A program made the translations under genes and the position numbers. A stretch of 64,000 nt of DNA from contig CAVWXA010000002.1 of NCBI GenBank assembly GCA_963758785.1, forward strand, positions 652,669 through 716,668, given 5' to 3'. The stretch's first letter is position 1; the number at the start of each line of letters is the position of its first letter. The DNA comes from an uncultured Acidobacteriaceae bacterium (lineage in GTDB: Bacteria; Acidobacteriota; Terriglobia; Terriglobales; Acidobacteriaceae). The notes under the pieces were generated by a model. The model was given only the letters and a program-made list of their open reading frames with translations. It did no database searches and was not told the origin of the DNA. Of this stretch, positions 12,482 through 32,959 are shown piece after piece.

Positions 12482-12532
12482 CCCCACCCTAACCGGTGCG
12501 CATGAATGCGCGCCGGTTAGAATGGGGCACCC
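12482..12532 (+). repeat. Palindromic repeat family B (CCCACCCT-hairpin-AATGGGGCACCC), preceded by a degenerate family A copy (about 12424-12463) and a heptamer array (about 12368-12420)
   Basis: Stem CTAACCGGTGCGCA/TGCGCGCCGGTTAG. Confidence 0.85.
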
Positions 12533-19790: not shown

Positions 19791-20844
19791 ATGAGTGACG
19801 CGATGAAATCCGCGGTGAGCAGTTCTGCGCTGGAGGCGCGAGCAGTGCCGCGGCGCTGCTGATTCGCGGGCTGAGGAAGGCGTTTGCCGATGTGCAGGCG
19901 GTGGATGGGATCGATCTGGAGGTTGCGCCGGGCGAGTGCTTCGGGTTGCTGGGGCCGAATGGGGCGGGGAAGACGACGACGATTGAGATTTGCGAGGGGC
20001 TGACGGCGGCGGATGAAGGGGACGGTGGAGCTGCTGGGGCTGAACTGGCAGACGGCGCGCGACGAGCTGCGGCAGCGGATCGGGATTCAACTGCAGGAGA
20101 CGCAGTTTCCGGACAAGCTGACGGTGGAAGAGGTGCTGCGGCTGTTCCGGAGTTTTTATCGGCGCGGGATTACGGTGGATGAGTCGATCAAGCTGGCGCA
20201 GCTTGAAGAGAAGCGGCGGGCGCGCGTTGGCGGGCTGAGCGGCGGGCAGAAGCAGCGGCTGGCGATGGCGACGGCGCTGGTGGGCGATCCGGAGCTGCTG
20301 TTTCTGGATGAGCCGACGACGGGGCTCGATCCGCAGGCGCGGCGGCACTTGTGGGACCTGGTGGAGGAGCTGAAGCAGGCGGGGCGCACGATCATTTTGA
20401 CGACGCATTACATGGAGGAGGCGGAGCGGCTGTGCGATCGCGTGGCGATTATGGATCACGGGCAAGCGTGATTGCGCTGGGCACGCCGAAGGAACTGATT
20501 GCGACGGTGGGCGGCGAGGACATTGTGGAGTTTGCGGTGAGCGTAAAAGCAGCCTCAGGTCCATCGACTTCGGTCGCCGCGGCAACTTCCGCTCAGGATG
20601 ACAGTGGGTATAAAGTGCGTGGTGGTGTGGACATTGAGCGGCTCACGGCGATTCCGGGAGTGCAGTCGCATCGCGTGGATGACGGACTGCACCAGCTTTC
20701 AGTGAGCGAGCTGCACACGACGGTGCCGCGGATTTTTGCGGCGCTTGAGGAGCAGGGGCTGCACTTGAGCGAGTTCCGGACGCACTCGGCGACGCTCGAA
20801 GATGTGTTTGTGCGGCTGACGGGAAGGAACTGCGCGATGAATAA
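19791..20844 (+). CDS. ABC-2 exporter ATP-binding protein (frameshifted; contains in-frame repeat)
   Basis: [38 protein letters not shown]. Confidence 0.93.
20555..20603 (+). repeat. Family A repeat inside the ABC ATPase coding frame
   Basis: CAGGTCCATCGACTTCGGTCGCCGCGGCAACTTCCGCTCAGGATGACA encodes [16 protein letters not shown]. Confidence 0.9.
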
Positions 20845-24027: not shown

Positions 24028-25122
24028 ATGGAATCAATTCATTTAGGCACTGAGGCTGCGTTAGTAGAGATGCCGAAAGGAAGCCGGTTTGTGCGCGCGT
24101 GCCTGCGGCGACCGGTGGATCGCACGCCAGTGTGGTTTTTGCGCCAGGCCGGGCGCTACATGCAGGAGTACCGCGACGTGCGCAAGCATCACACGCTGGT
24201 AGAAATTTGCAAAAAGCCGGAACTGGCGGCGGAAGTAACGATTACGGCGGCGGAAAAGCTGGGCGTGGATGCGGCGATTATTTTTGCCGATTTGCTGCTG
24301 CCGCTGGAGCCGATGGGTCTGGATTTTGAGTTTGCGGCCGGCGAAGGGCCGGTGGTGCACAAGCCGGTAAGAACTGCCGAGGACGTGAAGGCACTGCGTA
24401 CCGACCGCGCCGGCGACCTGGCGTATGTGGCGCTGGCGATTGAGAAGGTGGCGGCGCACTTTCGCGATCGGATGGGTGTGATCGGGTTCTGCGGCGCTCC
24501 GTATACGCTGGCGAGCTACATGATCGAGGGCGGCGGCTCGCGGAATTATGTCTACACCAAGCAGGTGATGTATCGCGACCCCATTGCGTGGAGCGGGCTC
24601 CTGGATAAGTTAGTCGCGGTGCTCACGGAGTATTGCCGGATGCAAGTACAGGCGGGCGCGGACGTGATTCAGATTTTCGATAGCTGGGTGGGATCGCTGG
24701 GGCTGAGCGACTACTGCACGTACGCTTTCGAAGCATCGAGGCGACTGGTGCGCGCGGTGCAGGCGATGGGCGTGCCGGTGATTTATTTTGGCGTGGAGAC
24801 GGCAGGGCTGCTGGAGAAGATGGCGGAGACGGGCGCCGACGTGATCGGGCTGGACTGGCGGCAGCCACTGGACGTGGGCTGGCGCGCGGTGGGGCATGGG
24901 CACGCGGTGCAGGGAAACCTGGATCCGATTACGCTGTTTGCGCCGTTGGAGATTCTGGAATTGCGCGTGAAGGAAATTTTGCGCGCGGCGAACGGGCGAG
25001 TGGGTCACATCTTCAATTTGGGTCACGGGATTGTGCCGGGCACGCCGGTGGAGAACGTCCAGGCGGTGGTGAAGATGGTGCGGGAGTTCCGGGTTGAACA
25101 GGGAATAGGGAGAAGGGAGTAG
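24028..25122 (+). CDS. hemE: Uroporphyrinogen decarboxylase
   Basis: PVWFLRQAGRY, DAAIIFADLL, QIFDSW, QGNLDP, HIFNLGHG. Confidence 0.97.
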   Translation: MESIHLGTEAALVEMPKGSRFVRACLRRPVDRTPVWFLRQAGRYMQEYRDVRKHHTLVEICKKPELAAEVTITAAEKLGVDAAIIFADLLLPLEPMGLDFEFAAGEGPVVHKPVRTAEDVKALRTDRAGDLAYVALAIEKVAAHFRDRMGVIGFCGAPYTLASYMIEGGGSRNYVYTKQVMYRDPIAWSGLLDKLVAVLTEYCRMQVQAGADVIQIFDSWVGSLGLSDYCTYAFEASRRLVRAVQAMGVPVIYFGVETAGLLEKMAETGADVIGLDWRQPLDVGWRAVGHGHAVQGNLDPITLFAPLEILELRVKEILRAANGRVGHIFNLGHGIVPGTPVENVQAVVKMVREFRVEQGIGRRE

Positions 25123-25235
25123 GGAATAGGGGGACGCCCCTGAGTCAGAGATTCGTTGAAGGATTTGGCGATGGAAATGCAGGTCCTTCGACTGCGTTTG
25201 GCGCGGAAATGCGCCAAACTTCGCTCAGGATGACA
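25100..25235 (+). repeat. Heptamer array overlapping the hemE stop (25100-25133) plus family A repeat (25175-25235)
   Basis: GGG at 25101, 25108, 25115, 25122, 25129; stem GTTTGGCGC/GCGCCAAAC. Confidence 0.88.
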
Positions 25236-25349
25236 GCGTTTTTTATTCCACGAATAATGACCAAGGACACAAGGGACGCGGGGACTAGAGAAAAGGCGAC
25301 TCGGTGGTGGGGAGCGGTGGAAATGCGATTCGCGATGGAGACGCGTTGA

Positions 25350-26375
25350 ATGCCTAAACAAGCGGTGTTGCTGCTGGCGCACGGAACTCCAGAGACAGTG
25401 GAGCAGATTCCCGAGTATTTGCGCAACGTGGTGAGCGGGCGGCCGCTGCCGCAGAGCGTCGTAGAAGAGATTCAGCACCGGTATGCGCTGATTGGGCGGA
25501 GTCCACTGACCGAGATCACGATGGCGCAGGCGCGGCTGGTGGAGAAGGAGCTAAGGAACGGAGACGAGACGATTCCGGTGTATGTGGGGATGCGAAACTG
25601 GCGGCCGTATATTCCCGAGGTGGTGCGACAGATGCGCGCCGATGGGATTGAAGAAGCTGCGGTAATTTGCATGGCGCCGCAGAACTCGCGGACCAGCGTA
25701 GGGCTTTACCGGCGCGCGGTGGAGGCCGAGGCGGCGGGGCTGCGCATCGACTTTACTTCAGGGTGGGCGCGACATCCGCTGCTGGCGGATGCGTTTGCCG
25801 AACGGCTGCGGCCGGCACTGGCCAAGCTGAGTGCGGAGGTCGGCGAGGCGGTGCCGGTTTTGTTCACGGCGCACAGCGTGCCGACGCGGACGGTGGAGGC
25901 GGTCAGTGGTGGTAGAGCTGACTCCGCTCCCAACCCTAGCGACAAAGACAAGAACGTCGCTAGAACGGGGCACCCCGTTTGGCCGGGACAGGGCACCGAT
26001 CCGTACGCCGAAGAGGCGCGGCATACGGCGGAACTCGTGGCGGAGCGGGTCGCGGAGATTCCACGATGGTGGTTCGCGTTCCAGAGCCAGGGCGCGAGCG
26101 GGGGCCCGTGGCTGGGTCCAAGCGTGGAGGAGACGCTGGACATGGTTGCGGCCGAGGGAGTGAAGGCGCTGGTGCTTCAGCCCATCGGGTTTCTGTGCGA
26201 CCACGTGGAGATTCTGTATGACGTGGACAAGCTGTTTCGCGGATATGCAGCGGAGCGGGGTGTAAGGCTGGAGCGGCCGGAATCGCTCAATGACTCAGCG
26301 ACGCTGGCGAAGGCGGTTGCGGACCTGGCGCGCGAGGGGCTGAAACGACTCCAGAAGATTCCCTCAAGTGCATGA
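25350..26375 (+). CDS. hemH: Ferrochelatase (with in-frame repeat insertion)
   Basis: LLLAHGTP, RYALIGRSPL, GMRNWRP, FTAHSVP, DPY, FQSQG..PWLGP, GFLCDHVEILYDVD. Confidence 0.95.
   Translation: MPKQAVLLLAHGTPETVEQIPEYLRNVVSGRPLPQSVVEEIQHRYALIGRSPLTEITMAQARLVEKELRNGDETIPVYVGMRNWRPYIPEVVRQMRADGIEEAAVICMAPQNSRTSVGLYRRAVEAEAAGLRIDFTSGWARHPLLADAFAERLRPALAKLSAEVGEAVPVLFTAHSVPTRTVEAVSGGRADSAPNPSDKDKNVARTGHPVWPGQGTDPYAEEARHTAELVAERVAEIPRWWFAFQSQGASGGPWLGPSVEETLDMVAAEGVKALVLQPIGFLCDHVEILYDVDKLFRGYAAERGVRLERPESLNDSATLAKAVADLAREGLKRLQKIPSSA
25929..25976 (+). repeat. Family B repeat inside hemH
   Basis: CCCAACCCTAGCGAC...GTCGCTAGAACGGGGCACCCC encodes PNPSDKDKNVARTGHP. Confidence 0.85.
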
Positions 26376-26681
26376 AAATCAAGCGAGTCGTTCGTTGGCA
26401 GGTTACCGGGGCTTCCACGGGCAGGTTCCGAAAGGCACGTTGCCGGCTGTTTTTTCCCTTCTGAGAAGCGCCATTCAGAATTAAGATCGTGGCGTAGCTG
26501 AAGACAAACTCGTACAACTTCTGGATTCTGCTGCGGCGTGAACGGGCGAGTGGCTTGTGCCGGCGCCCAAGCGAGCGGCGAAAGCTGCAGTGTGCGCTCG
26601 ATGCGAACCAGGAGGCTCTCTGAAGAGAGCGCAAGGCCCCAACAGAGGGCCGACCAGATCTTCGCAGGAGAATTCGCTGAG

Positions 26682-31213: not shown

Positions 31214-31416
31214 GGAGTTCGCGGAGTTCGCGGAGTTGGAAATCCCACCCTAAACGCAAACAGCGCGTTTAGAATGGGGCACCCCCTTTGGTACATAACC
31301 AGGCAAACAGAGCGACTGCGAATCCCAGGTCTCAGAAGCGAGACCTGGGGCACCCAGTGGAGTTGGAAATCCCACCCTGAACGCAAAAAGCGCTTTTGGA
31401 TGGGGCACCCCTTTGG
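31214..31416 (+). repeat. Cluster of three family B repeats plus 9-mer repeats between convergent genes
   Basis: Copies at 31243-31284, 31323-31355 and 31370-31410; first and third form a near-direct repeat. Confidence 0.9.
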
Positions 31417-32796: not shown

Positions 32797-32842
32797 TTAA
32801 GCGGTGGTAGGGGATTTGGCGGGCTATTCGGACCGCGTCGTC

Positions 32843-32959
32843 TCCCACTCATGGCGCAAAGAACACGCCATGAATGGGGCACCGAGACATTGTGGGAGAT
32901 CGGCACCACGAAATGCAGGTCCTTCGACTCGTCGCCACGGCGACTCGCTCAGGATGACA
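32843..32959 (+). repeat. Family B (32843-32883) and family A (32911-32959) repeats
   Basis: CCCACTCATGGCG...CGCCATGAATGGGGCACC; GGTCCTTCGACT-GTCGCCACGGCGAC-CGCTCAGGATGACA. Confidence 0.9.

What the first reader, a model, noticed from the sequence alone, without database searches (positions are those of the whole stretch)
25900..26000. Family B palindrome inserted in frame in ferrochelatase HemH
Seen: 38 residues separate AHSVP from DPY, and the DNA there (CCCAACCCTAGCGAC…GTCGCTAGAACGGGGCACCCC) has the same ends and hairpin layout as the intergenic copies at 12482, 31243, 31370 and 32843. The ORF is otherwise intact and lies in an error-free stretch. Known: this spacer is only about 7 residues in B. 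subtilis ferrochelatase and follows the catalytic His. Inference: a second, unrelated repeat family has also entered a coding region, tolerated as a surface loop.
Basis: partly seen in the sequence, partly recalled or inferred. Interest (0 to 1): 0.75.

Follow-up and report, generated by a model that had tools for sequence, protein, structure and literature searches.

The report
REP hairpin translated inside ferrochelatase loop
A 48-base hairpin repeat that normally lies between genes sits in frame inside the ferrochelatase (heme-synthesis) gene of a soil acidobacterium, adding about 15 residues to a loop predicted to be floppy; this is a known kind of insertion, but in related species the same two loops carry, lack or stack such repeats in a patchwork.

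Summary
Confirmed, with one correction. Window 25929-25976 is a family-B hairpin in frame in hemH (rank 55 of 130 genome copies, 0 in the control). It adds about 15 residues, not 31: element-free relatives already have a 12-31 residue spacer.

Family B is a published Acidobacterial REP (PMC6006769 Table S1) and flanks two REP-associated tyrosine transposase genes in this genome.

Of 95 genus HemH genes read (an enriched sample), 23 carry it in this loop and 24 in a second loop near residue 73, always in the same frame. Carriers are not one clade. The insert is conserved as DNA, not as peptide, while the enzyme core stays under purifying selection. AlphaFold gives residues 179-215 low confidence on an intact ferrochelatase fold. 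The same reading occurs in MutS, a CCA-type polymerase and an RNB-domain nuclease of relatives.

In-frame REPs are known (Rickettsia RPE; Di Nocera 2013), and this scan has noted them on other DNA. What is added is evidence of repeated turnover at fixed loops.

The parts
25350..26375 (+). hemH, ferrochelatase, 341 aa, intact; only match in this genome (80.65% complete)
   Evidence: model matches CpfC/HemH structures with TM about 0.8
25929..25976 (+). Family-B REP, long subtype, read in frame as residues P194-P209
25936..25963 (.). 8-bp inner stem with a 12-nt A-rich loop
   Evidence: z -4.5
25970..25974 (-). Unpaired GGTGC foot of the REP, on the template strand of hemH
   Evidence: sequence; same foot listed for Acidobacterial REPs in PMC6006769 Table S1
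25884..25997 (+). 38-residue spacer T179-T216 (loop 'site 2'); 12-31 residues in element-free relatives; predicted disordered
25872..25874 (+). His175, aligned with LmCpfC H182 (B. subtilis H183)
25557..25574 (+). Helix-strand turn near residues 70-75 ('site 1'): empty here, holds family-B copies in 24 of 95 genes read
12482..12532 (+). Intergenic family-B copy
31242..31284 (+). Intergenic family-B copy
31369..31410 (+). Intergenic family-B copy, weak stem
32841..32883 (+). Intergenic family-B copy

Best explanation
A copy of an Acidobacterial REP hairpin family sits in frame in hemH, likely placed there by its REP-associated tyrosine transposase (TnpA-REP), and it is likely tolerated because it adds about 15 hydrophilic residues to a surface loop predicted to be disordered. 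Shown: the element belongs to a family of at least 130 mostly intergenic copies; family members flank two TnpA-REP genes in this genome; the frame is kept; the enzyme core is under purifying selection; the insert is conserved as DNA, not as peptide. Inferred: TnpA-REP mobilises these hairpins in trans, and selection removes all landings except frame-keeping ones read in the hydrophilic H-P...G-H-P frame in permissive loops. Also inferred: the patchy presence across the genus comes from a few old landings followed by loss, replacement by other family members, tandem expansion and allele exchange, rather than from one clean event. The peptide likely has no function of its own.
For: Family membership. 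Published family with GGTG(C) foot beside TnpA-REP genes of Acidobacteria: PMC6006769 Table S1. Two own-genome Y1 genes flanked by 7 and 2 family-B ends pass the REP_Tyr_transpos cut-off (91 and 103.7 bits, cut-off 80). Changes in the element fall evenly on codon positions (0.50/0.36/0.43 at site 1; 1.14/1.00/1.57 at site 2) whereas the core is third-position skewed (0.61/0.43/2.24; 0.96/0.63/3.42). Amino-acid identity of the element is 0.70-0.82 against 0.85 for the core. Two both-sided stem changes alter residues on both arms. Core dN/dS is 0.05-0.15 in all 15 pairs computed, carriers and non-carriers alike. pLDDT <50 only at 179-215. Four of six frames are stop-free, yet all 47 hemH inserts and all 6 in-frame copies found by DNA pattern in four other genes use the same frame.
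Against: No enzyme assay, protein or RNA evidence. Mobilisation is inferred: the REPs flanking the two transposase genes are the short subtype, not the long subtype in hemH, and only 3 long-subtype copies pass the pattern in this genome. Synonymous change in the element is far below the core (4 vs 24 expected; 13 vs 32), which strict neutrality with plain inheritance does not explain. One stem variant (Asp at codon 4) makes up 17 of 17 long site-1 copies and 17 of 23 site-2 copies (read by eye) but only 9 of 30 pool copies, so the hemH copies are not independent draws from the pool.
Confidence: 0.8

Rival explanations
1. The in-frame copy is kept by selection on the hairpin itself (mRNA structure, a translation pause between domains, or a DNA-binding site), so it is a domesticated cis-element inherited from an old insertion and only occasionally lost.
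For: Low synonymous change confined to the element, with flanks at background. Two compensated stem changes. The outermost member of the carrier-containing clade already has the site-1 copy.
Against: 72 of 95 genes read lack the site-2 copy, including close sisters (dS 0.3-0.6). At least 15 and 11 changes of state. This genome's own copy has decayed outer ends. Copy type and number vary at one site.
Confidence: 0.1
2. The peptide has been co-opted, for example as a lid or interaction loop beside the active-site His, and is selected at protein level.
For: It lies just after His175. The Asp variant is over-represented.
Against: No codon-position signature. Lower amino-acid identity than the core. 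The same peptide occurs in a second loop, in unrelated proteins and in many short ORFs without a Pfam family (143 of the 150 best of 562 hits have none). Predicted disorder.
Confidence: 0.05
3. The patchy distribution is an artefact of chimeric metagenome assemblies or of an unreliable single-gene tree, and there was one insertion per loop, inherited vertically.
For: The tree rests on 891 columns of one gene; 15 of 58 inner branches are unresolved. Most relatives are probably metagenome bins.
Against: AU tests reject one clade for site 2 (p 1.9e-7), for the 13 carriers with the same 3' junction (1e-32) and for site 1 (2.7e-69). Different element types and up to five tandem units occupy the same site. 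This genome's allele is matched exactly by contigs of two studies.
Confidence: 0.05

Closest known systems
Acidobacterial REPs with GGTG(C) foot beside subclass 2.1/2.2 TnpA-REP genes (Quentin et al. 2018, PMC6006769, Table S1 rows GmalA01, AbacA01, AcapA01, AcisA01)
   Same: Same foot and outer stem, variable inner stem and loop, REPtron-like arrangement around Y1 transposase genes.
   Different: In the parts I read (section 12, passages, part 1 of 7 of Table S1) they are listed as transposase-flanking repeats; in-frame copies are described only inside subclass 2.4 tnpA genes. I did not place the two local transposases in a subclass.
Intragenic GTAG/CGTC REPs (Di Nocera et al. 2013, PMC3733652)
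   Same: REPs wholly inside known genes, sometimes twice in one ORF and as dimers or clusters, enriched in DNA-repair and RNA-handling genes, argued to be neutral in loops and linkers.
   Different: Different tag (GGTGC). No ferrochelatase, MutS, GidA or siroheme entry in the 4 supplements held as text. Turnover of one site across dozens of species is not described in the passages read.
Rickettsia palindromic elements (RPE; Ogata et al. 2000, as summarised in PMC2229807)
   Same: Palindromic repeat in frame in conserved proteins; guanylate kinase with its insert is translated and active, with altered substrate affinity.
   Different: RPEs are 105-146 bp, in an obligate intracellular genome; this one is about 48 bp, in a 6.7-Mb soil-type genome that still holds candidate cognate transposases.

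Membership tests
REP (TnpA-REP-associated) | Short palindrome forming a hairpin | tested here: met
   8-bp stem, z -4.5; the outer stem is decayed in this copy
REP (TnpA-REP-associated) | High copy number, mostly extragenic | tested here: met
   130 copies vs 0 in control; 12 inside my called genes, several of those probably chance or miscalled
REP (TnpA-REP-associated) | Conserved unpaired foot 5' of the hairpin | tested here: met
   GGTGC on the minus strand, as in PMC6006769 Table S1; not the canonical GTAG/GTGG
REP (TnpA-REP-associated) | Family members flank a REP-associated tyrosine transposase gene (REPtron) | tested here: met
   L034 and L037; the flanking copies are the short subtype
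REP (TnpA-REP-associated) | Bound and cleaved as single-stranded DNA by the cognate TnpA-REP | not testable with these tools
   needs biochemistry
REPIN/BIME | Inverted REP doublet as the unit | tested here: not met
   Single copy in this hemH; arrays in relatives are head-to-tail
Intragenic REP / RPE-like insertion | In frame in a conserved gene whose orthologues have an empty site | tested here: met
   72 of 95 genes read are empty at site 2
Intragenic REP / RPE-like insertion | Located in a surface loop of an otherwise intact fold | tested here: met
   Prediction only: pLDDT <50 at 179-215, TM about 0.8 to CpfC
Intragenic REP / RPE-like insertion | Protein translated with the insert and active | not testable with these tools
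   indirect only: core dN/dS 0.05-0.15
Rickettsia RPE proper | 105-146 bp element with RPE sequence | tested here: not met
   about 48 bp versus the size given in PMC2229807; sequence not compared
MITE | Terminal inverted repeats with a target-site duplication | tested here: inconclusive
   No consistent duplication against empty alleles; CACCC-like ends are part of the element

The most novel reading that the evidence does not exclude
Once a REP lands in frame in a permissive loop it stays a live exchange site: TnpA-REP cutting or gene conversion keeps swapping, stacking and excising family members there. A few loops of core enzymes (HemH, MnmG, TsaD, MutS, CysG) in this genus would then act as continuously refreshed cassettes of repeat-derived peptide, a natural record of how REPs move.
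Probability: 0.35. Interest if true: 0.65.

Novelty: new member of a known kind. Interest (0 to 1): 0.4.

Why it matters
In-frame palindromes in proteins are established, so the single insertion is ordinary. Its value is as a dataset. How REPs spread is still poorly understood (abstract start of PMC8266576), and intergenic sites are hard to align across species. Here the sites are anchored by conserved codons on both sides, in dozens of species, with empty, filled, replaced and stacked states. That makes junctions, frame filtering and turnover measurable, and HemH offers a simple complementation and enzyme assay. It also warns annotators: this repeat reading appears in 562 cluster representatives, most of the top 150 with no known family.

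Tried and rejected
Sequence-only HMM: too weak for this copy (E=0.074); replaced by a structural scan.

B. subtilis-type spacer as baseline for insert size: rejected.

Protein-level conservation of the peptide: rejected.

One clade of carriers: rejected; this does not tell gain from loss.

Coupling of the two sites: no signal (8 independent pairs, sign test median p=1), underpowered.

Recent transfer of a long segment as the general cause of element similarity: flanks are at background identity among seven 38-residue carriers, though single pairs (L065/L069; L053) look recombined by eye.

Rfam: 0 matches at E<=1 over 25300-26500.

Expression: no RNA holder listed, which is no evidence either way.

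The stem-pair printout was mis-indexed and is superseded. Alignment A3 had one wrong coordinate and was discarded. The script stopped at row L072 and was completed; L072's site-2 length there is a pattern artefact and it was counted as empty.

My gene caller covers only 72% of the genome, so counts of coding copies are approximate.

Paper searches listed no paper on REP inserts in Acidobacterial HemH; the library lacks most subscription journals.

Full report
Observation. The ORF at 25350-26375 is a ferrochelatase downstream of hemE, and the only match in this 80.65% complete genome. Thirty-eight residues separate AHSVP from DPY. Bases 25929-25976 encode P194-P209 and fold into an 8-bp stem (z -4.5). 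A strict pattern finds 75 family copies in the genome and 0 in the reversed genome. A scan combining end matrices and stem pairing finds 130 at score >=24 against 0, the hemH copy ranking 55th. A sequence-only profile gives E=0.074, because stems vary and this copy's outer ends have decayed. Contigs from two public studies match the insert and its flanks without a difference.

Size of the insert. The 7-residue spacer is that of Listeria CpfC (6rwv), where the aligned His is H182 (H183 in B. subtilis). Same-genus genes without the element have 12-31 residues, mostly 22-26. The element adds about 15 residues to a loop that was already long and variable.

What the family is. Table S1 of PMC6006769 lists REPs with the same GGTG(C) foot and outer stem beside TnpA-REP genes of four Acidobacterial genomes (I saw part 1 of 7 of that table, section 12 and passages). 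This genome has 7 Y1-transposase matches. Two are flanked by family-B ends (7 and 2 copies) and pass the REP_Tyr_transpos cut-off; the flanking copies are a short subtype. The family pattern occurs in 119 of 150 genomes of the same family, or 117 of 148 without two unpublished genomes, G426 and G445. The long subtype occurs in 69 of 74 chosen genus genomes. A source labels one close HemH homologue Terracidiphilus sp..

Distribution in HemH. I read 95 genes: 30 of the 60 genomes matched, and 65 more chosen from the top-scoring or longest of the 150 listed matches among 401 genomes. The set is therefore enriched for carriers. 23 carry the element after the catalytic His (site 2), 24 in the turn near residue 73 (site 1), 12 at both, 35 at either (classed by loop length, then read by eye). 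In the unselected draw of 36 genus relatives, 4 of the 29 read at sequence level were carriers. All inserts use one strand and one frame. Site 1 holds the long subtype in 17 genes and a short subtype or composite in 7. It holds tandem units in L026 and five units in P0001. On a tree of 61 of the 95 genes with both loops removed, all carriers fall in a 57-gene clade. Site 2 needs at least 15 changes of state and site 1 at least 11, and one clade of carriers is rejected for both. These counts cannot tell gain from loss.

DNA, not peptide, is conserved. For 27 full-length copies, third-position identity is 0.77-0.89 at four-fold sites against 0.58 in the core. Amino-acid identity is 0.70-0.82 against 0.85, and flanks are at background. 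On the tree, changes fall evenly on the three codon positions in the element but mostly on third positions in the core. Synonymous changes number 4 versus 24 expected at site 1 and 13 versus 32 at site 2. The set was picked by a peptide pattern, which favours conserved copies. Two both-sided stem changes alter residues on both arms. The core has dN/dS 0.05-0.15 in 15 of 15 pairs. AlphaFold2 gives mean pLDDT 82, with only 179-215 under 50, and the model matches CpfC/HemH structures at TM about 0.8.

Other genes. Four of the six readings of the element are stop-free. Of 30 non-hemH long-subtype copies in loci L190-L219, 5 lie inside long ORFs: MutS, two CCA/poly(A)-polymerase-type proteins, an RNB-domain nuclease, and one ORF without a Pfam match. 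With the MutS of L050, all 6 use the same hydrophilic frame as hemH. The two MutS copies, from sister genomes, sit in the same loop but differ in stem variant and flanks. A CysG protein has a linker of about 200 residues with several such units. In this genome, other family-B subtypes lie in frame in MnmG, TsaD and an AcsV-like protein. Across 30 loci each, the same MnmG and TsaD loops vary widely in length and carry several repeat-like peptides (family assignment by eye). A profile of the peptide hits 562 of 1.84 billion representatives; 143 of the best 150 have no Pfam family.

Mechanism. Most likely TnpA-REP spreads family-B hairpins, and selection keeps only frame-preserving, hydrophilic-frame landings in permissive loops (mobilisation inferred, filter supported by the frame bias). 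The history is unresolved. Low synonymous change argues for copies younger than the gene tree, or refreshed. But one stem variant makes up 17 of 17 long site-1 and 17 of 23 site-2 copies against 9 of 30 in the pool (by eye, 88), and both sites often share a short 5' flank that no other of this genome's 130 copies has. That points to few origins, possibly one site copied from the other. A few old landings followed by loss, replacement, stacking and allele exchange fit both observations. Selection on the hairpin is the main rival.

Comparison with what is known. REPs inside known genes, twice in one ORF and in clusters, are described by Di Nocera et al. 2013 (PMC3733652; passages, and 4 supplements searched without a ferrochelatase entry). 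Rickettsia RPEs in 19 ORFs, with an active guanylate kinase, are summarised in PMC2229807 (passages) and PMC3184786 (passages). REPIN excision was seen in population reads (PMC3116915, passages). Seven searches listed nothing on Acidobacterial HemH inserts. Earlier notes of this scan report the same kind of insertion in other genomes, two of them Acidobacterial; these are unchecked and I did not test them.

Verdict. Real, correctly read in outline, and a new member of a known kind. Interest 0.4: the single insertion is ordinary; the anchored, multi-species record of turnover at two loops of an assayable enzyme is what is worth following.

Noticed in passing
window 19900-20843: ABC-transporter ATPase gene with a family-A hairpin in frame at about 20555-20616; the gene appears split by a frameshift near 20465.
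   Followed up: partly
G000 C15:481531-482961 (L122): TsaD of this genome has three lengthened loops (29, 60 and 58 residues against about 15-20, 35-37 and 16 in the shortest relatives); one holds a family-B copy and one a family-A-like peptide.
   Followed up: partly
G000 C3:613044-615221 (L121): MnmG has two long repeat-bearing loops; relatives carry different repeat-like peptides in the same two loops.
   Followed up: partly
G000 C15:710927-712492 (L123): Family-B copy in frame between the ferredoxin-like and AcsV-like parts of a 568-aa protein, read on the opposite strand as a hydrophobic peptide, an exception to the frame bias for another subtype.
   Followed up: partly
P0001, P0014, P0015, P0016: HemH proteins with three to five tandem units at site 1, and a CysG whose inter-domain linker of about 200 residues is largely family-A and family-B units.
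   Followed up: partly
L050 and L212: MutS of sister genomes G025 and G020 carries different stem variants with different flanks in the same loop.
   Followed up: partly
G000 whole genome: Family-B copies run on one strand over long contig stretches (41 forward, 12 reverse), possibly a replication-strand bias; not tested.
   Followed up: no
window 25098-25131: The last residues and stop codon of hemE come from a purine-rich 7-base repeat family with 9 copies in the window.
   Followed up: no
window 31324-31355: A further short hairpin with the same foot lies between the 31243 and 31370 copies.
   Followed up: no
G000 whole genome: 1,908 intergenic 15-mers recur at 6 or more loci, including a 30-copy element unrelated to families A and B.
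   Followed up: no
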